Positions 6,552 through 63,368 of a DNA stretch of 64,000 nt are shown in pieces; within the stretch, counting starts at the first letter, position 1; every line of letters starts with the position of its first letter. The notes beneath the pieces are model-generated. The model made no database searches, was not told where the DNA came from, and saw only the letters and a program-made list of their open reading frames with translations. The stretch lies in sequence record PZ674595.1; one strand, given 5' to 3'. A program made the position numbers and the translations under genes. Source of the stretch: a phage.

Positions 6552-6824
6552 AAAGAATTATGGCGCTTGTTGAGGAAGTCACTCCTCTTACGCACTTTGT
6601 TTTGCCATGCCGGCAGTTAGCTTCTGCCTTTGACTATTCATGCGGCAACCCCGCATTTCGCCACAATGGGCAATTCACTTTTATGGAATAAACTGGCCGT
6701 TGTGTCGATTTAATTAGCATGGCCTTACCATGCTAATTTATTCAACTTGTACAATCCTACAAATCTATCCACTCAGGCTTACACCGTCTTCGTTATTGTA
6801 GAAATGAGGATCATCAGCGTTGAA

Positions 6825-7040
6825 TCAGCTTAGAGCAACGACATTTGCTGCTGCTGGGCCTTTAGCCCCATTCTCGATAGAGAATTCGACCTGCTGGCCT
6901 TCTTCCAAAGTGCGGAAATTATTACTCTGAATTGCCGAAAAATGTACAAAAACATCTTTACTGCCATCAGCAGGAGAAATAAAGCCAAAGCCTTTATCAG
7001 AGTTAAACCATTTTACTAAACCAGTCATTTTATTAGACAT
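6825..7040 (-). CDS. Cold-shock protein, CspA family (closest in my recollection to CspB/G/I)
   Basis: Translation [38 protein letters not shown]... with RNP motifs KGFGFI and VFVHF; ATG at 7040 is internal Met33 of the 103-aa track ORF, preceded by GAAGGT. Confidence 0.9.
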
Positions 7041-7369
7041 AGATATTACCTTCTTAATTTTGTGAGCCACATAGTGCGGCGAGAATTTGATCTGTATAGA
7101 TTGGGACTTACTTAGGCACTTAAGGAGGAGACTCACGAAGAAGGGAAATCAGAAGATAACACTGAACTGAGACTGCTTTACTAAAACTGCTTACATAAGG
7201 TCTGTCTTGCAAACCAACGATGCTATTAACGCATACCCCTTCTTTTCATGCAACCTTTATTTTTCAAAGATAACTAATTTTTGTCACCATTGGTTTAGTA
7301 AACGTTAACGAACCAGACGATGCCAGACACCTTTACAGAGAACAGATGCCCGCCAATTGGCGGGCATCA

Positions 7370-13567: not shown

Positions 13568-13616
13568 TCGCAATTATCTTATTAAGAAAACAATTTGTTT
13601 AAAAGGATAAGAAAAC

Positions 13617-25256: not shown

Positions 25257-25362
25257 CATATGGTGGGGGATATCCCCACCTTCTCTTTGATTTGTAAACC
25301 TTGTTTAAACACATAAGATAACAACTTGTTTAAACGCACCAAAAAAGAAAAAGGAAAAACAC

Positions 25363-29142: not shown

Positions 29143-29615
29143 AGATGATAGCTGCTGTTGGCCGTAACTATGAGATCGGCATAGCGAACGAACTGCCCTG
29201 GCGTTGTTCTACCGATCTGAAGCTATTTAAGAGACTCACCAAAAACGCCACTGTCGTTATGGGGCGTAAAACGATGGAAAGTCTCAAACGCCCTCTTCCA
29301 GAGCGTCATAACCTCGTTTTGACGCGCTCTCATGGCTTTGTACCAAATGGATTCTACCCTGCTGGTGTGGATGATGTGTTGCGATTACCAGAGCCTGTGT
29401 GGGTGATTGGCGGGGAACAAATTTACTCGCTATTCATGCCGCATGTTGAAGAGATTTGGCTCTCCCACATCGGCGTTGATGTGCCAAACGCCGATGCATT
29501 CTTCCCGGCAAGCATGATGCGTAATTTAGGCTTTGTGCCTGTTGAAACAGCTTATACCCAACGAGCCAGCGAGGAAGAGCCTGGCTTTTCGCAGATCGTA
29601 TACAGAAGGTCGTAA
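29139..29615 (+). CDS. folA: dihydrofolate reductase
   Basis: MKMIAAVGRNYEIGIANELPW, VVMGRKTMESLKRPLPERHNLVLT, VIGGEQIY match DHFR motifs; RBS GAGGTGAG. Confidence 0.85.
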   Translation: MKMIAAVGRNYEIGIANELPWRCSTDLKLFKRLTKNATVVMGRKTMESLKRPLPERHNLVLTRSHGFVPNGFYPAGVDDVLRLPEPVWVIGGEQIYSLFMPHVEEIWLSHIGVDVPNADAFFPASMMRNLGFVPVETAYTQRASEEEPGFSQIVYRRS

Positions 29616-30259
29616 TGGATTACCGGATTGGGATCACTGGTGCTCAGGGCAGTGGGAAAACAACCCTGGCTAAATATATCGACAAACATTACGGAATCCC
29701 TTACGTGGATGCTGGTGTCGGAAGTTTGATGAGCCGCCTCGGTGTTCGAGTAGGTGATTCTATGCCTCTATATGAGCGGCTTCAGATTCAAATGGAAATA
29801 GCAAAGCATATAGAGCTACTTACGCGTGGTGTTGAAGGCTTTGTTATCGATCGCACACCTGCTGATGTTATGGCCTACACGTTGGATTTGGTCGGCCATA
29901 CAAATGAAGATCGGTGTATTGAGTTAGCCCTCGATATCGAAAAGTTTTGCCACAAAACTGCTATTTCAAACTTTAACGCCATTGCTGGCTTACGCCCGGG
30001 AGTCGCTCTCTCAGAGCGAGATTACTTGCGATCACAACGAGCATCATTAGACCGTCTGTATGTCGCTCGTATTGATGCGTTGATGTGCGGGGAACTGACA
30101 AAAATTCACCTGCATCCGCAAAGGGGAGATCTGCAAACCTTCGTCGTTTCCAACCGATATCGCACGGTTGAAGCAAGAGCCAGATCAGTGATGAGAATGC
30201 TAGATAACGCTGTAGAAAAGATAGAAAACCGGTTCTGTGGCCGAGTGACCGTTCATTAG
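29615..30259 (+). CDS. P-loop nucleotide kinase (putative dNMP kinase)
   Basis: Walker A GITGAQGSGKTTLAKYI; follows thyA/DHFR; RBS GAAGG. Confidence 0.45.
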   Translation: MDYRIGITGAQGSGKTTLAKYIDKHYGIPYVDAGVGSLMSRLGVRVGDSMPLYERLQIQMEIAKHIELLTRGVEGFVIDRTPADVMAYTLDLVGHTNEDRCIELALDIEKFCHKTAISNFNAIAGLRPGVALSERDYLRSQRASLDRLYVARIDALMCGELTKIHLHPQRGDLQTFVVSNRYRTVEARARSVMRMLDNAVEKIENRFCGRVTVH

Positions 30260-30320
30260 AAATTGTTCGCCTCTTCGACATTGCGACAATAAAACTCTCA
30301 AAATGGGTTAAGGATAAAAA

Positions 30321-30740
30321 ATGTTTAGTGAAATGTTGCTTGAAGATGAACTGGATCGGAAAACAACAGAGGCTTTGATTCGTGTAGCGGACGAACATTC
30401 CCGGTCGCTTATGAGCGATCGAGAGGCTCGTCTGGCTATTCGTGCCATATTCGAAACTGCGCAGGGGCTTGTTGGTACACAAGTGGGTGAAGCCATTAAC
30501 ATCGCCATGTCTCAGTTCAGTGAAGGCAGTAAAAAGCCTCTGTTTCCTATGCATTTGATGCTGGCTGGTGGCACGGTGCTTTATATCTCTGTTTGTCTGG
30601 ATAGCAACCAAATCAATATTCTCAACACTGTGTCAGGTAAGTGGAAAGATCCGATTGTCTGTGAAACCAGTGAAGAAACTTTGAAAAAAGCGGCTCAATT
30701 TGTACGTAGCGCACTACTTAAGGGCGCTAAGAAGTTGTAA
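30321..30740 (+). CDS. hypothetical protein
   Basis: 139-aa ORF; RBS AAGGATAAAAA. Confidence 0.4.
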   Translation: MFSEMLLEDELDRKTTEALIRVADEHSRSLMSDREARLAIRAIFETAQGLVGTQVGEAINIAMSQFSEGSKKPLFPMHLMLAGGTVLYISVCLDSNQINILNTVSGKWKDPIVCETSEETLKKAAQFVRSALLKGAKKL

Positions 30741-30749
30741 GGAGTTCTG

Positions 30750-31307
30750 ATGACAACGATTGTTGCAGGCATCGATATCGAGTCTACGGGACTGGATTTC
30801 CTTGCTGGTCATAAAATTATTGAAATCGCAATTACCCGCTATGAACTGGAGACACAGAGACATATTGATAGTCTGGAGATGCGTTTTAACCCTCGCAGAA
30901 ACATAGATCCGAAAGCTCAAGCCGTTCATGGCATTTCATTGGAACAGCTCGCAGCTGAACCTTTGTTGTCAAATCATGCCAGCGAAATTGGCGCTTATAT
31001 GGGGGCATGTAGTGTGTGGGTTGCTCATAACGGCGAAGCATTTGATATACCATTTATTCGACACGAGTTTTCAGGGTATGGAGTAAGACTGCCAGAAGTT
31101 CCTGTTATAGATACTATGTTATCGGGATTGTGGGCCACAGAAGACGGTAAACGTCCCCGCCTTGAAGAGTTGGCCTTCTCTCTTGGCTTTATATACGATC
31201 ATGCCAAAGCACATAGTGCCTTATATGACACAAACTTAATGATGCAATGCTTCTTTAAGGCACGTAATAAGTACGGATTTTTTAAATTACCCTCTGAAAT
31301 TGTGTAA
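30750..31307 (+). CDS. dnaQ: DnaQ-like 3'-5' proofreading exonuclease (DEDDh)
   Basis: Exo I GIDIESTG, HKIIEIA, VHGI, Exo II HNGEAFDIPF, Exo III HSALYD; RBS AAGGAG. Confidence 0.8.
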   Translation: MTTIVAGIDIESTGLDFLAGHKIIEIAITRYELETQRHIDSLEMRFNPRRNIDPKAQAVHGISLEQLAAEPLLSNHASEIGAYMGACSVWVAHNGEAFDIPFIRHEFSGYGVRLPEVPVIDTMLSGLWATEDGKRPRLEELAFSLGFIYDHAKAHSALYDTNLMMQCFFKARNKYGFFKLPSEIV

Positions 31308-33052: not shown

Positions 33053-33073
33053 TTTGTTCTGGCGTCTGTAATT

Positions 33074-33132
33074 AGCCTGCTTCTGTATATATAAATAACT
33101 ACATATTAATTATTAATATACGGAAGCAGGCT
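33074..33132. repeat. 59-bp inverted-repeat element (19-bp arms), copy 1 of 2
   Basis: AGCCTGCTTCTGTATATAT...ATATATACGGAAGCAGGCT; second copy at 63193-63253 shares an identical right arm. Confidence 0.6.
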
Positions 33133-33237
33133 GTTTTGTATCAGAGACTCCAGACCTGAACATCACTACAGAATCCACTAGAACCCCTTCCCAGACGCTT
33201 TAAAATCGATTTTATGAATCACTTTAAGGAAACTAAC

Positions 33238-33468
33238 ATGTCATACCCGACTAATGTCGTTGCGCTCGTAGAGAGCGATTTTCTGGCCCAGGCCCGTGAA
33301 ATGATGAAAGATCGCGAGCAGGCTTTCAACTTGTACGAATGGGCAATTAAGTGCTTGCATCTTGGGGAGCATCGCGAACTTGTTGAACAGCTTTTAGGTG
33401 AGTTGATCAACGAGGTGTTTGCCTTGAATGTTCAACTACATGGTCGAGAAAATAATCAATCGAAATGA
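33238..33468 (+). CDS. hypothetical protein
   Basis: Track ORF 33214-33468; likely start at second Met (MSYPTN) behind AAGGAAA. Confidence 0.35.
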   Translation: MSYPTNVVALVESDFLAQAREMMKDREQAFNLYEWAIKCLHLGEHRELVEQLLGELINEVFALNVQLHGRENNQSK

Positions 33469-35495: not shown

Positions 35496-35588
35496 CGGTT
35501 GTTAGTGCATATGCATTGACCGTCTTTTCGTAAGCAATTCATGTAACTAGAAAACAACTTGTTTTAACAAATAACAAAAGGAAAGCAC

Positions 35589-36202: not shown

Positions 36203-36311
36203 TTGACCGAAATAGAGAGTTTGCACCTTTACGTTTAGCTTGCTCCCCTTTTATGCCACATCACAATAAAGCCAATAAGAAAACAACTTGTTTAAGCATT
36301 AGGAAAAACAC

Positions 36312-47361: not shown

Positions 47362-47475
47362 ATATAGACACAATCCCTTCTGATTTACACAGTACCTAAA
47401 ACAATTTGTTTTCTGCCTTTTGTTGATGGAGATAATAAACCACATAAGAAAACAACTTGTTTTGGAGTGGTTGAA

Positions 47476-48839: not shown

Positions 48840-49700
48840 TGTTTATACAAATAAGAAAACAACTAAATAACAGATCAACGAAACGTCAACGCTTTCACCC
48901 GATTTGGTCTAAAAAATTGACGTTTTCACACATCACTTCTTATACCCGTAACTCTACGCAGCAGACAGCGCCACAGCGTCCAATTTTCACCACAGACGAC
49001 CCAACACACTACCAACAAAAACACACGCTCAAAATCGCTCCCGTTGCGTTACACAACCATATAAACAACTTATTTTCAGGCATAACAAAACAACTAAATA
49101 ACACACATGCCATTTCCAAAAACAACCAACCTCTTTATGGCAGGCTACCGAAAAGACCCACCTCTTCTCCCCAGTCTACCGAAAAGACCCACCTCTTCTC
49201 CCCAGGCTACCGGACAACCAACCTAACTTTCACAGGCAATCCGAAAACATTCATACGCGCGATACCCACGACACGCCATTCCCCAAACAGCGAAGAAACA
49301 CCAGAATCACTGAAACCCCAACGAAGCCTGTAACCGCAAGGATTCTCTCAATCCCAAAAGACACGAAACAGAACAATCACGGGAAACGCCATTACCCAAT
49401 ACACGAATAACTACAAAAGCCTTTCACACACTCCAGACAAACAACTCAAACACAACAACGAAAGGAATCGCCCACCTGCCATTACTCCATACACGGAGAA
49501 GAACAATCACCAAAACGACGAGAACACCCCATAGAAGAACCACCGCAAAACGAACGAAACCACATACACCGACAGAGAAAACAACACACCCAATTCACCA
49601 ACAGAAATAGTCGCCGTATAGAACATTCTGGAAGGAGTGAGCATTAACGCCTATAGAGAGGTTGAGACAGATAAAACACAACATGTATAGCGAAGAAGCC
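48840..49700. repeat. strand-asymmetric C/A-rich, G-poor tract with tandem 29-bp repeats
   Basis: Plus strand almost devoid of G over ~860 bp; perfect tandem copies of CTACCGAAAAGACCCACCTCTTCTCCCCA at 49155-49183 and 49186-49214 plus a degenerate third; track ORF 48839-49333 judged a composition artefact. Confidence 0.6.
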
Positions 49701-50573: not shown

Positions 50574-50681
50574 CGCTATTAACCTCCGGGCAGCGCAGCA
50601 CCGTAACGATATACTTTGTGGCCGTTTTCTTACTGGTATTGTTTACGCAATTCAGAAAACAACATGTTTAAGGATTGCGTT

Positions 50682-51011: not shown

Positions 51012-51165
51012 TCACAATCAAAGCCAGCATTGCTGGCTTAACTTAATCTGTAGCCGCAGGGAAGAACCTGCATATCGCTCATGCGCCTGATCAATATGCT
51101 TTGTAGCCGTTTTCTTACTGGTATTATTTACGCCATTGAGAAAACAAGTTGTTTACGGAGTTGTG

Positions 51166-52036: not shown

Positions 52037-52116
52037 AAGCCCGATAACAATTTGTTTTCTGCCTTATCTGATTTGTGAAAATGATTTCACTGAAGCAACT
52101 TAATAAGGAAACCATC

Positions 52117-52637: not shown

Positions 52638-52826
52638 TTATTAAGGCCACCAGCGTTGGTGGTCTTAAATAACTTTTAATAACCGAAGGTTAGTTTGAAA
52701 CCTGGCTATCAACTTCCAGAACCTTTCTTGTGTATTCAGCCTGTATTAACTTCTTTTATGCCTTATCTACACTGCGATAATTACACCAACAAGAAAACAA
52801 CATGTTTACGCAGTGAGGATATGCTC

Positions 52827-53240: not shown

Positions 53241-53312
53241 GACGCCTTATTCGTACAACGATAATTAACACCAACAAGAAAACAATTTGTTATTTACGAT
53301 AAGGAATTAATC

Positions 53313-59999: not shown

Positions 60000-60680
60000 A
60001 TGGATGTAAAAATCACGATTTTGCAGGTTGATGTTGCCAACCTTCGCCCGAATACCTGGAACACCAATTCGGTTGGTGCGCAGAATTTTGAAAAACTGAA
60101 AGGTTCTATCGAAAAATTGGGCTTTTTTAAGCCAATTTTGGCTCGTGAACTTGAAGATGGATTTTTTGAAATCCTCGGCGGCGAACATCGCTGGCGTGCC
60201 GCTATTGAGCAAGGAATTTCAACGGTTCCGGTGCTTTCTGTGGGCAAAATTAGCGATGTCGTAGCTAAACAGATGTCACTGGTGGACAACGAGCGATACG
60301 GTGAAGACGACCAAATCGCATTGCAACGCTTCATTGAAGAAATTCAGTCAGAACTTGACTATCAGCTGTCTGAAATCGCCCCGTATGACGACGAAATCTC
60401 GATGGTTTTAGCAAAAGAGGCGGCAATCGACCTTGAAGCACTGGAGGCGTTGTCTCGTGGTAGTGATGAGCCTGTCGATACCGACAAACGAGAGAAAACC
60501 GAACGTGTGGGTGCGGAACATCAGACCATGCGCTTCAAAGTAACTTTCGATGCGTCAGATCGTGTTGCAGAAACCATAAAAAACATCATCAAAGAGCAGG
60601 CTATTAACACCGGTAATGAAATGGAGAACGCTGGTGAGGCTCTGGTGTGGCTGGTCGACTACTACAAGGAGCGTATGTAA
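60000..60680 (+). CDS. ParB N-terminal-domain (ParB/Srx fold) protein 1
   Basis: ILGGEHRWRAA arginine-finger motif of ParB-type NTP-binding domains; track ORF starts with GTG at 59982; start choice uncertain (no clear RBS). Confidence 0.6.
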   Translation: MDVKITILQVDVANLRPNTWNTNSVGAQNFEKLKGSIEKLGFFKPILARELEDGFFEILGGEHRWRAAIEQGISTVPVLSVGKISDVVAKQMSLVDNERYGEDDQIALQRFIEEIQSELDYQLSEIAPYDDEISMVLAKEAAIDLEALEALSRGSDEPVDTDKREKTERVGAEHQTMRFKVTFDASDRVAETIKNIIKEQAINTGNEMENAGEALVWLVDYYKERM

Positions 60681-61348
60681 TGACCAAAAAGTTTGAAATC
60701 GTATATCGCGACCCGGCAGATCTTATTCCCTATGAGATGAATGCCAAAAAGCATGATGAACAGCAGATCCGAGATCTAGCCGCAGCCATTAAAAAGCGCG
60801 GATTTGACCAGCCAATTACGGTCGATAAGAACGACGTAATTATTACTGGCCACGGCCGCCGTGAGGCTGCAATTTTTGCTGGACTTGAGCGCGTACCGGT
60901 TATTGTTCGCGATGATCTCAGTGATGACGAGGTTCGTGCGAAGCGCCTTGAAGATAACCGACTTGCCAGCATTGATTACGATGCAATTAAGCTACAGAAA
61001 GAGCTTGAGTCGCTTGTTCTGGACGATATCGAGGTTTTCGGCTTTGAAGAGCGTGAGTTGAATGTTCTCGTTGGCAGCATGACAGAAGAAATGGACACCG
61101 ACTCGCTAGTTATCGATCTTGGCGAAGAAACTAAACGACAGAAGGATGAACACACCGAGATCAGTCGTGAAGTTGCAGCGGAAGAAGTACGTGTTGTCGA
61201 CGTATTGGGCTTTAAAACGCTTCCTGCTGGCTCTGCCATTGTTGTTGGTGATTTGCTTGCCCACATGGAAGAAATGACGGGAGAAAGCGGGGTAGACGCA
61301 TTTGTGGCATATGCGGAGAAGATCTCTTCCGGGGAGATGGCTGCATGA
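60680..61348 (+). CDS. ParB N-terminal-domain protein 2 (paralogue)
   Basis: IITGHGRREAA motif; ATG overlaps upstream stop (TAATG); acidic C-terminus. Confidence 0.6.
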   Translation: MTKKFEIVYRDPADLIPYEMNAKKHDEQQIRDLAAAIKKRGFDQPITVDKNDVIITGHGRREAAIFAGLERVPVIVRDDLSDDEVRAKRLEDNRLASIDYDAIKLQKELESLVLDDIEVFGFEERELNVLVGSMTEEMDTDSLVIDLGEETKRQKDEHTEISREVAAEEVRVVDVLGFKTLPAGSAIVVGDLLAHMEEMTGESGVDAFVAYAEKISSGEMAA

Positions 61349-62010
61349 ACAAATACATCATCAACGTATCGTTTCAGACACGCGTAAATAAAACCACGCG
61401 CACGTTGGAAATCGCTGAGTCGTTCGGGCTTGGCCTGGACGAAAAAGAGTGGACGCTTTACGACAATCTGGAGCTGGAAGTGAAGCAGGGCGATGTGGTG
61501 TACATCACCGGCCAATCCGGTTCCGGCAAATCCGTTGTGCTGCGCGAGTTGCAACGACAGATGAAGGATGAAGGGCTGTCTGTAGCCTCCATCGATGATT
61601 TTACCTTCGATAATGAGGTTAACGTCATCGATCAGTTGGGCAAAACGACCAGCGATGCGCTTGGGTTGTTATCTATGGCTGGTCTGAACGATGCATATCT
61701 GTTTGTTCGCAAGCCTTCTGAAATGTCAGACGGTCAGAAATATCGTCTCAAGATTGCCAAACTGATTGAGTCAGGCGCTAAAGTGTGGGCTGCTGACGAG
61801 TTCGGTGCTGTTCTAGACCGTGTAACCGCTCAGGTTGTGGCATCTAACCTCCAGCGTGCCGCTCGAAAGGTTGGTGCGACGGTAATGGTGGCGACGACTC
61901 ACGAAGACCTGAAGAACGCGCTGCGCCCGGATATGCAGATCACCAAGCACTACAAAGAACGCGTGAAGGTGGAATATCACAATGGTAGTCATGATGAGGT
62001 TCATTTATGA
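61345..62010 (+). CDS. stand-alone ABC-type ATPase (nucleotide-binding domain only)
   Basis: Walker A GQSGSGKS, signature-like SDGQKYRL, Walker B VWAADEFGAVLD, H-loop ATTHED; ATGA overlap with upstream gene. Confidence 0.6.
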   Translation: MNKYIINVSFQTRVNKTTRTLEIAESFGLGLDEKEWTLYDNLELEVKQGDVVYITGQSGSGKSVVLRELQRQMKDEGLSVASIDDFTFDNEVNVIDQLGKTTSDALGLLSMAGLNDAYLFVRKPSEMSDGQKYRLKIAKLIESGAKVWAADEFGAVLDRVTAQVVASNLQRAARKVGATVMVATTHEDLKNALRPDMQITKHYKERVKVEYHNGSHDEVHL

Positions 62011-62897
62011 CGGACATCATCATTAAACGCTACCGCCCTGAAGAGTTTCCGCGTCATCTGGACTTTCTGGAGCGAATGACTGTCACAAAGGGAACTGTAG
62101 AGGACTGGCACGCTCTTAAGTCGCTTCACTACAAAACAGACGGCAAACCTTTCGCGCCAACTTACTATCGCTGCGAACTTGATGACCGTCTGGTGGGCGT
62201 CGTGGTTATGGCTTACCCGAAACTACTGCTGGCACCTCGCCACCGCATGTTTCCTAAGTTGAAACCAACCACTAATACCACCGTGGCTAACCAGTACTGG
62301 GGTCGGTACGTGAATAACAACTTTGCGGTGATCAGTCGCTCAGTTGTGGATACTCAGTATCGTGGCGTAGGCGTCTCTTATCGAATGATTAACCTGGTTA
62401 GCAGGATGCATGACCGGCCAATCATTGAGATCCAGTCCTCGATGAGCAAATACAATCCCTTCGCCATGAAAGCAGGGTTTAAGTTCATCCGCCCTGAGCG
62501 ACCGAAGAGCTATGAAAGTGCACTGCGTGTATTCCAGCGCCATTTCCGTTCCGACCCGGGTGATAACGAGGCGATCGTCAAAGAGTTGTTCGCAATGAGC
62601 GAGTCTCGTCGTCGCCGTGCACTGCGTGATCTGGTGGCGGACTACCACAAGAACAGTTCCCTGGCAAAAGCTGGGCGGAATCGTGGCACGACGATTCAGG
62701 ACATTGCCGACAGTCTGGTGGACGAGGCCAGCATTGTGAAGCTGCTCAAGGACATTCACAACCTGAGCTTTACGTCTCCGTTGTATGGTGTGTACCGAAA
62801 CCCTGACTTTGGCCGTCGACTGCCTGACACGCTGCCACTGCTGGCATTCGACAAACAACCTTTGGATAAACCGTTAGAAATTGCTTTACCGGCATAA
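62007..62897 (+). CDS. GNAT-like acyltransferase-fold protein with C-terminal extension
   Basis: Motif-A-like VDTQYRGVGVSYRMI preceded by hydrophobic strand LVGVVVMAY; ATGA overlap with ATPase gene. Confidence 0.5.
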   Translation: MTDIIIKRYRPEEFPRHLDFLERMTVTKGTVEDWHALKSLHYKTDGKPFAPTYYRCELDDRLVGVVVMAYPKLLLAPRHRMFPKLKPTTNTTVANQYWGRYVNNNFAVISRSVVDTQYRGVGVSYRMINLVSRMHDRPIIEIQSSMSKYNPFAMKAGFKFIRPERPKSYESALRVFQRHFRSDPGDNEAIVKELFAMSESRRRRALRDLVADYHKNSSLAKAGRNRGTTIQDIADSLVDEASIVKLLKDIHNLSFTSPLYGVYRNPDFGRRLPDTLPLLAFDKQPLDKPLEIALPA

Positions 62898-62906
62898 GGA
62901 TTTGCC

Positions 62907-63173
62907 ATGACGTTAACCGATAAACAAAAGGACATCATCAAAACGCTCAATCTCGGTTATGAGCGAGGTCATCTACTTGACCTGGACGAATTGCTTGAAG
63001 TTTTGCCGTACAAGACAACCAAGCAAAGTATCCAGTTCTCAATTCGCGCTCTGATAAAAAAGGGGCTGGTGGAGAAAGGGCATACGCGCCAACGCAGTGA
63101 CAATCGCTATCACCGCCGAACTCTTGGGTTAACCACTTTAGGTCGAGCCAAAGCGAAGTTACTGGTGATGTAA
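62907..63173 (+). CDS. small putative winged-helix DNA-binding protein
   Basis: 88-aa basic ORF 10 nt after the GNAT-like gene; RBS AAGGA. Confidence 0.4.
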   Translation: MTLTDKQKDIIKTLNLGYERGHLLDLDELLEVLPYKTTKQSIQFSIRALIKKGLVEKGHTRQRSDNRYHRRTLGLTTLGRAKAKLLVM

Positions 63174-63192
63174 TCGGTCTGGGAGCTTATTT

Positions 63193-63253
63193 AAAGACCT
63201 GCATCTGTATATATAAATAATAAGTAACTTATTAAATATATACGGAAGCAGGC
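63193..63253. repeat. copy 2 of the conserved inverted-repeat element
   Basis: Right arm ATATACGGAAGCAGGCT identical to copy at 33074-33132; left arm diverged; loop carries AATAAGTAACTTATT palindrome. Confidence 0.55.
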
Positions 63254-63368
63254 TTCGTAAGACATGCCAGACCTAATTAAACACCTCAGAAAACAAGTTG
63301 GTTAGCAGATGCAGTAAACAAGTTGTTTTAGAGCGCATGGACGCGCTCTGTGTGTTTTAGAGGGATCT

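What the first reader, a model, noticed from the sequence alone, without database searches (positions are those of the whole stretch)
33074..33132. Conserved about 60-bp inverted-repeat element present twice (33074-33132 and 63193-63253) with homologous downstream flank
Seen in sequence: copy 1 forms a 19-bp stem (AGCCTGCTTCTGTATATAT / ATATATACGGAAGCAGGCT, one mismatch that would be a G-U pair in RNA). Copy 2 retains an identical right arm but a diverged left arm, and both are followed by a related CCAGACCT-containing segment. One copy follows the Dam-type methyltransferase gene, the other follows the five-gene operon before the terminase gene. Inference: conservation of one arm beyond what a hairpin needs suggests a protein recognition site or RNA processing/termination element shared by two operon ends.
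Basis: seen in the sequence. Interest (0 to 1): 0.4.

Follow-up and report, generated by a model that had tools for sequence, protein, structure and literature searches.

The report
Conserved nested palindrome marking phage-plasmid module boundaries
The two look-alike hairpin sequences are real members of a three-per-genome family of about 55-base palindromes that sit between gene modules of SSU5-type phage-plasmids. They most likely act as transcript hairpins (terminators or processing signals), but their exact job has never been described or tested.

Summary
The window is an E. coli SSU5-like phage-plasmid (98-99% identical to phage Cyrano/pLF82). Both copies (33074-33132 and 63195-63254) are near-perfect palindromes of about 55-60 nt: GC-rich arms (RCCTGCNTYYGTATATA) around a centre that is about 94% A+T. 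Each lies inside an outer inverted repeat, with TCTGG 13-15 nt upstream and CCAGA 13-18 nt downstream. A third copy lies outside the window, upstream of the helicase/primase module. The same three loci carry the element in about 780 plasmids (Escherichia, Klebsiella, Enterobacter, Salmonella, Yersinia pestis pMT1) and in all sampled IMG/VR relatives.

The core is better conserved between genera (84-95%) than the neighbouring genes (67-86%). Loci 1 and 3 are almost always followed by a run of at least 4 T; locus 2, before the terminase gene, never is. More divergent relatives carry ordinary terminators at the same three junctions.

Best reading (confidence about 0.4): a strong RNA hairpin that insulates or terminates at module boundaries, with an outer stem that can form only on read-through, as in lambda sib/tI. 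The main rival is a DNA-level protein-binding site (origin, regulator or packaging). It stays open because arm covariation is not significant, one arm survives without a hairpin in a relative, and extra copies sit where nothing needs terminating. No Rfam family or publication was found.

The parts
33058..33062 (+). Copy 1, outer left half-site TCTGG, 13 nt before the inner palindrome.
   Evidence: Read. TCTGG lies 13-15 nt upstream of the left arm in 100% of 39 distinct locus-1 variants, against 0.03 per sequence in shuffles.
33074..33132 (+). Copy 1, inner palindrome. Left arm AGCCTGCTTCTGTATATAT, AT-rich centre, right arm TAATATACGGAAGCAGGCT.
   Evidence: RNA fold -27.8 kcal/mol, z = -6.5. 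nhmmer E = 5.6e-16.
33133..33139 (+). Copy 1, T-run (GTTTTGT) directly after the stem; a putative U-tract.
   Evidence: A run of at least 4 T within 10 nt of the right arm occurs in 51 of 52 distinct locus-1 variants.
33150..33157 (+). Copy 1, outer right half-site CCAGACCT. It pairs with the upstream TCTGG region in the extended fold.
33190..33206 (+). Copy 1 downstream flank: second CCCAGAC followed by GCT-T-TAAAAT (a -10-like hexamer), about 30 nt before the start of the 76-aa ORF at 33238.
   Evidence: The block CCAG(A/T)CGC-TA(N)(N)AT is conserved at loci 1 and 3 across genera. The promoter role is inferred; no consensus sigma-70 site was called on the + strand.
63176..63185 (+). Copy 2, outer left half-site GGTCTGGGAG, 3 nt after the ORF88 stop codon and 15 nt before CCTGC.
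   Evidence: Present in 90% of 31 distinct locus-2 variants.
63195..63254 (+). Copy 2, inner palindrome: AGACCTGCATCTGTATATATAAATAATAAGT-A-ACTTATTAAATATATACGGAAGCAGGCT. No T-run follows it.
   Evidence: RNA fold -26.3 kcal/mol, z = -6.7. nhmmer E = 6e-18. None of 41 variants has a T-run of 4 or more.
63267..63274 (+). Copy 2, outer right half-site CCAGACCT.
   Evidence: The extended fold pairs 63176-63182 with 63267-63273: -44.9 kcal/mol, z = -7.75.
63287..63350 (+). Not part of the repeat but contiguous with copy 2. Two copies of the genome-wide palindromic motif AAACAAGTTGKTT (63291-63303, 63316-63328), then a small GC hairpin plus T-run (63329-63350) just before the terS ribosome-binding site. 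Probably the control region of the late operon.
   Evidence: The same arrangement is conserved in SSU5, Klebsiella and K. oxytoca relatives.

Best explanation
The two sequences are copies 1 and 2 of a three-copy family of nested palindromes. The family is specific to SSU5-type phage-plasmids and sits at the junctions between gene modules:
- locus 1: nucleotide-metabolism/Dam module | small ORFs and RNase H;
- locus 2: ParB-like/ABC/wHTH operon | terminase and structural genes;
- locus 3: partition/cargo genes | helicase-primase module.

Proposed mechanism, acting on the + strand transcript. The inner palindrome folds into a hairpin of about 25 bp: a GC-rich base with an AU-rich top.

At loci 1 and 3 (copy 1 in this window) a U-tract follows the hairpin directly, so it works as an intrinsic terminator or insulator. 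This keeps transcription of the upstream and often variable genes out of the next module.

If RNA polymerase reads through, the downstream CUCCCAGAC segment pairs with the upstream GUCUGGGAG segment. That produces a longer two-tier duplex that exists only in read-through RNA. This is the logic of lambda tI/sib, where such a duplex is an RNase III target.

At locus 2 (copy 2) the U-tract is absent. There the same hairpin would not terminate and would instead act as a processing, stability or pause signal just before the separately controlled late (terminase) operon.

Status of each step:
- Shown: anatomy, copy number, conservation, the locus-specific T-run, and ordinary terminators at the same junctions in relatives.
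- Inferred: termination, read-through pairing and RNase III processing.
For: - Hairpin strength: -26 to -33 kcal/mol, z = -5.5 to -8.7. The two-tier fold with flanks gives z = -5.3 to -9.0.
- Position: in the window and in Cyrano all copies are intergenic between co-directional + strand genes.
- T-run: at least 4 T directly after the stem in 51 of 52 (locus 1) and 50 of 56 (locus 3) distinct variants, and in 0 of 41 at locus 2. The surrounding spacers are only 51-87% conserved.
- Divergent relatives have ordinary intrinsic terminators at the same junctions. K. oxytoca pCAV1752-111 has them at all three loci, OW968253 at locus 2, and Morganella at locus 3.
- Centre length varies from 51 to 57 nt, including TA slippage. 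A hairpin tolerates this; rigidly spaced protein half-sites would not.
- Non-Watson-Crick cells in the GC stem are mostly G.U on the + strand (about 43), against about 11 A.C.
- Three lineage-specific double substitutions keep the pairing: Klebsiella locus 1 C-G to T-A, OW968253 T-A to C-G, Raoultella G-C to C-G.
- The profile scores higher on the + strand at both window copies, so the element has a polarity that matches transcription.
- The outer TCTGG/CCAGA pair is present in 90-100% of locus 1 and 2 variants.
Against: - Among 59 distinct arm pairs, covariation is no better than shuffled controls: 91.3% paired against 91.0%, with 120 of 500 shuffles as high.
- Primary sequence is conserved more than structure alone requires. 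The core is 84-95% identical between genera, above the flanking genes at 67-86%.
- Copy 2 and all locus-2 variants lack a U-tract.
- In pCAV1752-111, loci 1 and 3 keep only the AT-rich centre and a right-arm homologue, with no hairpin. A separate terminator follows.
- An extra copy in E. albertii lies about 110 nt after an ordinary terminator.
- In Enterobacter pEH4236 the locus-3 copy lies between divergent genes, so there is no upstream co-directional gene to terminate.
- Ordinary terminators elsewhere in this genome are short, GC-rich and unrelated in sequence.
- A 25-bp stem with a conserved AU-rich top and extra CCAGA repeats downstream (mean 2.4 at locus 1) is not typical of terminators.
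- No transcript data were available.
Confidence: 0.4

Rival explanations
1. DNA-level protein-binding array. A phage-plasmid protein recognises the conserved arms (CCTGCNTYYGTATA, inverted) and the flanking TCTGG/CCAGA motifs on double-stranded DNA, for example the wHTH ORF88, the ParB_N proteins, the RHH partner of ParA, or the unknown protein upstream of the helicase. The three sites would then act as operators or silencing or centromere-like sites spread over the genome. Precedents are KorB sites on RK2, the dispersed SopB centromeres of N15, and the three omega-binding parS/operator sites of pSM19035.
For: - Arm sequence is near-invariant: 92% mean column identity, with both arms varying only at the same three positions.
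- The core is more conserved than neighbouring genes.
- Covariation is not significant.
- TCTGG/CCAGA lie at fixed offsets, with extra CCAGA repeats downstream.
- In pCAV1752-111 a half element without a hairpin is kept as a 43-nt repeat at two loci, and all three loci share a genome-specific right-arm variant.
- At locus 3 the element stays with the downstream module whatever lies upstream.
- DNA-binding genes lie next to loci 2 and 3.
Against: - No binder was identified.
- The distance between the arms varies by up to 6 bp, and the TCTGG offset ranges over 15-29 nt at locus 3.
- The locus-specific T-run is unexplained by this model.
- There is no similarity to known parS, sopC or OB sequences (from my own knowledge; not tested against a database).
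Confidence: 0.22
2. Lytic replication origins or recombination-initiation sites. The ~35-bp centre (94% A+T), clamped by GC-rich inverted arms, would be a DNA unwinding element or a cruciform-prone site. It would be used by the element's T4-like replication and recombination set: helicase, primase, Pol III alpha, UvsW, UvsY, gp32-like SSB, RecA, SbcCD-like and RuvC-like proteins. The layout resembles herpesvirus oriS/oriL palindromes or the paired oriL/oriR of SPP1.
For: - Anatomy of the element.
- Three copies, as in multi-origin phages.
- Locus 3 lies directly upstream of the unknown-protein/DnaB-like helicase/primase operon and always travels with it.
- The element encodes a full T4-like recombination-dependent replication gene set.
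- Primary-sequence conservation.
Against: - No initiator was identified. The protein downstream of locus 3 has no Pfam, NCBIfam or PDB sequence match.
- There are no classical iterons.
- The palindrome is lost at two of three loci in a viable-looking relative.
- The T-run pattern and + strand polarity are better explained by RNA.
- The plasmid replicon (RepA) is elsewhere.
Confidence: 0.12
3. Packaging site. Copy 2, directly upstream of the small terminase gene, would be the pac or cos site where terminase cuts. The other copies would be secondary or pseudo sites.
For: - Position immediately 5' of terS.
- The GenBank records of phages SSU5 and Cyrano are linearised inside this palindrome...CTTATTA|AATATATACGG.
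- The flanking repeated motifs could be terS-binding sites.
Against: - Four unrelated draft contigs also start inside the locus 1 and locus 3 palindromes. Record ends there look like assembly breaks at a three-copy palindromic repeat.
- Cyrano is a re-annotation of plasmid pLF82 that its authors compared with SSU5; no packaging data were reported. That its start point was chosen to match SSU5 is my inference from the coincident coordinates.
- Three near-identical copies, sometimes with identical 55-nt cores at loci 2 and 3, would fragment a cos genome.
- TerL is of the T4-like Terminase_6N type and closest to P74-26 TerL, which gives no hint of cos cutting.
Confidence: 0.06
4. Recombination or mobility cassette, not exclusive of the other readings. 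The conserved palindromes would serve mainly as short homology or hairpin hot-spots that mediate module shuffling and cargo exchange. Precedents are the PeSL terminator/promoter cassettes of T4-type phages, or MITE/REP-like elements.
For: - At locus 3 the upstream flank falls into at least 7 unrelated sequence clusters, while the downstream flank forms one. Homology breaks within a few nt of the left arm.
- In some E. coli elements loci 2 and 3 carry identical 55-nt cores, which implies gene conversion.
- A fourth copy lies inside a 2.2-kb replacement cassette in E. albertii.
- PeSLs are described as conserved terminator/promoter motifs associated with indels (PMC2839356, PMC4122927).
Against: - Only three fixed loci occur in nearly all genomes.
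- Both flanks are conserved at loci 1 and 2.
- No target-site duplications or dispersed copies were seen outside SSU5-type elements.
- No consensus sigma-70 promoter is attached.
Confidence: 0.1

Closest known systems
Lambda tI terminator / sib retroregulator (RNase III site formed only on read-through)
   Same: A terminator hairpin whose stem can be lengthened by sequence lying beyond the termination point. Terminated and read-through RNAs would therefore differ in structure. Here the TCTGGGAG ... CTCCCAGA outer pair brackets the inner hairpin plus T-run.
   Different: Three homologous copies per genome rather than one. The inner stem is much longer and AU-rich. A large internal loop (about 14 x 17 nt) separates the two tiers. 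One copy has no U-tract. RNase III cleavage is untested. The comparison rests on my knowledge of lambda, not on a tool result.
PeSL / PmSL composite terminator-promoter cassettes of T4-type phages (PMC2839356, PMC4122927)
   Same: Repeated, conserved stem-loop elements at gene-module boundaries, associated with variable cargo and recombination.
   Different: PeSLs are short stems joined to near-consensus sigma-70 early promoters, and they occur in many copies within hyperplastic regions. Here there are only three fixed copies, a ~55-nt palindrome, an outer inverted repeat, and no consensus promoter.
T7-type RNase III processing sites
   Same: Several sequence-related two-tier hairpins (upper stem, internal loop, lower stem) in intergenic regions of a single-direction transcription map.
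   Different: No sequence similarity, no Rfam match, a far larger internal loop, and no processing data.
Palindromic origins with an AT-rich centre (HSV oriS/oriL) and dispersed plasmid-prophage protein sites (N15 centromeres, RK2 KorB operators)
   Same: Inverted conserved arms around an AT-rich centre. A few copies dispersed at regulatory junctions of a plasmid or phage genome.
   Different: No cognate binding protein is known here. The arm spacing is variable. There is a transcription-linked polarity and a T-run. The comparison is from my own knowledge only.

Membership tests
Intrinsic (Rho-independent) terminator | Stable GC-containing stem-loop on the transcribed strand | tested here: met
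   -26 to -33 kcal/mol, z <= -5.5. The stem is unusually long (about 25 bp) with an AU-rich top.
Intrinsic (Rho-independent) terminator | U-tract immediately 3' of the stem | tested here: inconclusive
   Copy 1: GTTTTGT; a run of at least 4 T in 51 of 52 locus-1 and 50 of 56 locus-3 variants. Copy 2 and all 41 locus-2 variants lack it. The feature is met for copy 1 and not met for copy 2.
Intrinsic (Rho-independent) terminator | Lies downstream of a co-directional gene | tested here: inconclusive
   True in the window and in Cyrano. Not true for locus 3 of pEH4236, where the neighbouring gene is divergent. The E. albertii extra copy follows another terminator.
Intrinsic (Rho-independent) terminator | RNA 3' ends map to the U-tract | not testable with these tools
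   No Term-seq or RNA-seq data were accessible.
PeSL terminator/promoter cassette (T4-type phages) | Stem-loop joined to a sigma-70-type early promoter consensus | tested here: not met
   No + strand promoter-like site was called next to either copy. There are only weak -10-like hexamers (TAAAAT, TATCAT) with poor -35 regions.
PeSL terminator/promoter cassette (T4-type phages) | Many copies concentrated in hyperplastic regions and at indel junctions | tested here: inconclusive
   Only three copies per genome. Locus 3 does border a hypervariable cargo region; loci 1 and 2 do not.
RNase III processing site | About two turns or more of dsRNA, often two-tier | tested here: met
   Predicted inner stem of about 25 bp plus an outer stem of 7-11 bp.
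RNase III processing site | RNase III-dependent cleavage | not testable with these tools
   Needs rnc+/rnc- RNA end mapping.
cos / pac packaging site | Physical genome end or packaging-series start at the site | tested here: inconclusive
   The SSU5 and Cyrano records start inside copy 2. Draft contigs also start inside the locus 1 and locus 3 copies, as expected for assembly breaks. No virion read data were available.
cos / pac packaging site | Unique site next to the terminase genes | tested here: not met
   Copy 2 is next to terS, but there are three homologous copies per genome, sometimes with identical cores.
Replication origin | AT-rich unwinding element flanked by initiator-binding repeats, next to replication genes | tested here: inconclusive
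   An AT-rich centre and inverted arms are present, and locus 3 is next to the helicase/primase genes. No initiator or iterons were identified.
MITE / REP-like mobile palindromic repeat | Many dispersed copies in unrelated contexts, with target-site duplications | tested here: not met
   All 128 IMG/VR instances and all plasmid hits that were inspected lie in SSU5-type elements, almost always at the same three loci. No target-site duplication was seen.
Any Rfam RNA family | Match at or above the gathering score | tested here: not met
   The only window hit is the cspA thermoregulator, located elsewhere. At the two copies there are only sub-threshold generic-hairpin (miRNA precursor) matches.

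The most novel reading that the evidence does not exclude
The three nested palindromes are cis-acting DNA sites of the lytic cycle. A phage-plasmid protein binds the invariant CCTGCNTYYGTATA arms and the TCTGG/CCAGA flanks and opens or extrudes the AT-rich centre. This creates multiple origins, or cruciform or double-strand-break entry points, for the element's T4-like recombination-dependent replication (UvsW, UvsY, RecA, SbcCD-like, RuvC-like). The adjacent T-runs would be a secondary adaptation. If so, this would define the unknown lytic origin system of a clinically widespread phage-plasmid family that includes SSU5, pHCM2 of S. Typhi, pMT1 of Y. pestis and many resistance plasmids.
Probability: 0.15. 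Interest if true: 0.75.

Novelty: new variant of a known kind. Interest (0 to 1): 0.42.

Why it matters
SSU5-type phage-plasmids are common in clinical Enterobacteriaceae. About 780 PLSDB plasmids carry this element, including Y. pestis pMT1 and plasmids of Salmonella, Klebsiella and Enterobacter. Their cis-acting control sites are essentially unmapped.

This three-copy nested palindrome is the most conserved non-coding sequence at the junctions between the metabolism, replication and packaging modules. It is therefore a prime candidate for whatever separates or coordinates these modules, whether by termination or insulation, RNA processing, or protein binding.

There are also practical consequences. 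The element breaks short-read assemblies and determines where published genomes were linearised. At locus 3 it marks the edge of the cargo region where accessory genes are exchanged.

If it proves to be only an unusually conserved terminator, the finding is useful annotation and not a surprise.

Tried and rejected
- **Rfam.** Searches at gathering and permissive thresholds found no family.
- **Literature.** Searches for an SSU5 cos site, termini, origin or palindrome found nothing describing the element. The SSU5 genome announcement and one 2026 preprint could not be read.
- **cos/pac from record starts.** Rejected as evidence after finding draft contigs that start inside the other two copies.
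- **Genome-wide CCAGAC operator.** Rejected. CCAGAC occurs 45 times on the + strand and 50 on the - strand in the 108-kb Cyrano genome, only about twice the roughly 22 per strand expected from composition. The longer CCCAGAC is at expectation (5 + 5 against about 4.8 per strand) and stands out only beside the palindromes.
- **Sigma-54 or MotA-box promoter** within or next to the arms. Considered by eye and rejected on spacing and on mismatches at the critical positions.
- **Homology between the small neighbouring proteins** (ORF88 and ORF76). None.
- **Function of the protein downstream of locus 3.** No Pfam, NCBIfam or PDB sequence match. Structure prediction was not run.
- **Raoultella-type arm variant in IMG/VR.** No hits.
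- **GTDB genome scan with terS.** Only 4 loci, all of the standard type.
- **More distant relatives.** Aeromonas and Acinetobacter (terS about 30% identical) have no recognisable element.
- **Formal covariation test on the arms.** No signal above shuffles.

Full report
**What the window is.** The region around both copies is 97-99.6% identical to Escherichia phage-plasmids CMS-2020a, Cyrano (pLF82) and PhiR41_1. It is about 76-79% identical to Salmonella phage SSU5 and to Klebsiella SSU5-like elements. By alignment with Cyrano, the window covers roughly Cyrano 45,000-108,379 plus the first ~770 bases. Almost all genes are on the + strand.

**Check of the observation.** Copy 1 is at 33074-33132 and copy 2 at 63195-63254.
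- The 17-nt right arm is identical in the two copies. The left-arm/centre 23-mer differs at one base.
- Both motifs are far above chance: 0.14 and 0.00 matches expected.
- CCAGACCT follows each copy. The two regions align over about 190 columns at 78% identity.
- A profile HMM built from 75 distinct family members finds exactly these two copies in the window and three in the complete Cyrano genome.
The whole ~55-60 nt is a near-palindrome, because the centre (about 94% A+T) also pairs.

**Anatomy.** Each copy is nested.
- A TCTGG(GAG) motif lies 13-16 nt upstream of the left arm. A (CTC)CCAGA motif lies 13-20 nt downstream of the right arm.
- These outer motifs are present in 90-100% of distinct variants at loci 1 and 2 and in 60-89% at locus 3. 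Shuffled flanks give 0.03-0.09 per sequence.
- Locus 1 has further CCAGA copies downstream (mean 2.4 within 80 nt).
- With flanks, the RNA folds into a two-tier hairpin: outer stem, large internal loop, inner stem of about 25 bp. Energies are -41 to -48 kcal/mol, z = -5.3 to -9.0.
- Downstream of copy 1 there is a CCCAGACGC-T-TAAAAT block and then the ribosome-binding site and start of a 76-aa ORF (33238).
- Downstream of copy 2 come two copies of an unrelated genome-wide palindromic motif, then a small GC hairpin with a T-run, then terS.

**The family.**
- A 156-nt query from copy 1 hits 780 PLSDB plasmids, mostly with three places per E. coli record. Hosts are Klebsiella, Escherichia, Enterobacter, Yersinia pestis pMT1, Salmonella, Citrobacter and Cronobacter.
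- A pattern scan of IMG/VR gave 128 instances. By flank homology, all fall at three loci:
  - locus 1: Dam | ORF76;
  - locus 2: ORF88 | terS;
  - locus 3: partition/cargo | unknown protein-helicase-primase. Locus 3 is at Cyrano 31157-31216, outside the window.
- Samples that do not depend on the pattern were collected through the neighbouring proteins. Nearly every full-length locus carries the element: 41 of 44, 52 of 53 and 56 of 61 distinct upstream sequences at loci 2, 1 and 3. Most of the exceptions are truncated contigs.
- Enterobacter plasmid pEH4236 also has exactly three copies.

**Conservation.**
- Between E. coli, Salmonella SSU5 and Klebsiella pJN2-26 the core is 84-95% identical. 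The adjacent spacers are 51-87% identical and the neighbouring coding sequence 67-86%.
- Both arms are near-invariant and vary at the same three positions.
- Orthologous loci resemble each other more than paralogous copies do, so the triplication is old. In some E. coli elements, however, loci 2 and 3 have identical 55-nt cores, which indicates occasional gene conversion.

**Evidence for an RNA-level hairpin, terminator or insulator.**
- A run of at least 4 T follows the stem in 51 of 52 locus-1 and 50 of 56 locus-3 variants, but in 0 of 41 locus-2 variants.
- Centre length varies from 51 to 57 nt.
- Non-canonical pairs in the GC stem are mainly G.U on the + strand.
- The profile scores higher on the + strand for both window copies.
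- More divergent relatives have ordinary terminators at the same junctions:
  - K. oxytoca pCAV1752-111 (terS 65% identical) has CAGAGC-ACG-GCTCTG-T8 at locus 2 and separate GC hairpins with T-runs at loci 1 and 3.
  - OW968253 has a diverged palindrome plus T5.
  - Morganella has an ordinary terminator at locus 3.
- Three lineages show double substitutions that keep the pairing.

**Evidence that termination is not the whole story.**
- Covariation in 59 distinct arm pairs is no better than shuffled controls.
- Copy 2 has no U-tract.
- pCAV1752-111 keeps a 43-nt repeat (AT-rich centre plus right-arm homologue) at loci 1 and 3 without any hairpin, each followed by its own terminator.
- E. albertii p3RM15113 has a fourth copy inside a 2.2-kb replacement cassette, about 110 nt after an ordinary terminator and ahead of a toxin-antitoxin pair.
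- In pEH4236 the locus-3 copy lies between divergent genes.
- At locus 3 the upstream flank falls into at least 7 unrelated clusters while the downstream flank is a single cluster. Homology stops within a few nt of the left arm. The element therefore belongs to the downstream replication module.
- Other + strand terminators in this genome are short, GC-rich and unrelated to each other.

**Packaging-site idea.** The SSU5 and Cyrano GenBank records start inside the copy 2 palindrome. This looked like a physical end. However, four draft contigs start inside the locus 1 and locus 3 palindromes, which is what assemblers do at a three-copy palindromic repeat. The LF82 paper gives no packaging data for Cyrano. 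TerL is of the T4-like Terminase_6N type and is closest to P74-26 TerL. Three near-identical sites also argue against cos.

**Known families.** No Rfam family matches, and no paper describing the element was found. The closest concepts are:
- lambda tI/sib, a terminator whose read-through form is a longer duplex;
- the PeSL terminator/promoter cassettes of T4-type phages (PMC2839356, PMC4122927);
- T7-type RNase III sites.

None fits as a membership. The promoter half of a PeSL is missing, the copy number is three, and no processing data exist.

**Verdict.** It is a conserved, three-copy, nested palindromic boundary element of SSU5-type phage-plasmids.
- Most likely (about 0.4): it works in RNA. 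It would be a terminator or insulator at loci 1 and 3 (copy 1), and a non-terminating structural or processing hairpin at locus 2 (copy 2).
- Rivals: a DNA-level protein-binding role as regulator or centromere-like site (about 0.22), an origin (about 0.12) or a packaging site (about 0.06). A recombination role (about 0.1) is compatible with any of these.

Noticed in passing
window 13588-13600, 25319-25331, 35552-35564, 36281-36293, 47399-47411, 47450-47462, 49063-49075, 50657-50669, 51142-51154, 52045-52057, 52795-52807, 53280-53292, 63291-63303, 63316-63328 and others: A 13-bp palindrome, AAACAA-N-TTGTTT, occurs at about 18 sites: 33 strand-matches at up to 2 mismatches against about 3 expected. 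By their coordinates, many sites lie just upstream of small + strand genes, and two lie in front of terS. The motif also occurs upstream of parA and of the helicase gene in Cyrano. It is probably the operator or promoter motif of a global phage regulator.
   Followed up: partly
window 63329-63350: A small GC-rich hairpin plus T-run (AGAGCGCATGGACGCGCTCT-GTGTGTTTT) lies immediately before the terS ribosome-binding site. A hairpin is kept at the same position in K. oxytoca and K. pneumoniae relatives with a different stem sequence (GGCGTC...GATGCC). It could be an attenuator or antitermination target for the late operon.
   Followed up: partly
window 6800-7218 (- strand); ORF 6825-7136 (-): A full-length Rfam cspA thermoregulator match (185.7 bits, E = 2.4e-49) overlaps an ORF encoding a CspA-family cold-shock protein ([20 protein letters not shown]...). 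This appears to be a cold-shock moron carried with its thermosensing 5' UTR. By my coordinate mapping, Cyrano annotates HicA/HicB at about the corresponding position.
   Followed up: partly
L006 (SSU5 1-20), L007 (SSU5 end); L220, L237, L295, L308: The published SSU5 and Cyrano genomes are linearised inside the locus-2 palindrome. Several IMG/VR draft contigs begin inside the locus-1 or locus-3 palindromes. The three-copy palindrome appears to be a systematic assembly break point for this plasmid family.
   Followed up: yes
Cyrano 29307-31134 (L008) and homologous IMG/VR loci L293-L372: The segment between the ParA/RHH partition genes and the locus-3 palindrome is a cargo hot-spot. At least 7 unrelated upstream sequences abut the same palindrome. 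In pEH4236 the DUF2971 gene there is inverted.
   Followed up: partly
window 60000-63173: The five-gene operon upstream of terS encodes two paralogous ParB_N-domain proteins, two ABC-type ATPases (the second matches only PHROG 886) and an 88-aa winged-helix protein (weak Sta1/Lrs14 and LexA-N matches). Its function is unknown. It is conserved next to the terminase genes across the family.
   Followed up: partly
L217 2795-5026 (E. albertii p3RM15113): A 2.2-kb cassette replaces the Cyrano 97742-98258 region. It contains an ordinary terminator, a fourth copy of the palindrome with its TCTGG/CCAGA flanks, a RelE/ParE toxin-antitoxin pair and two unknown genes.
   Followed up: partly
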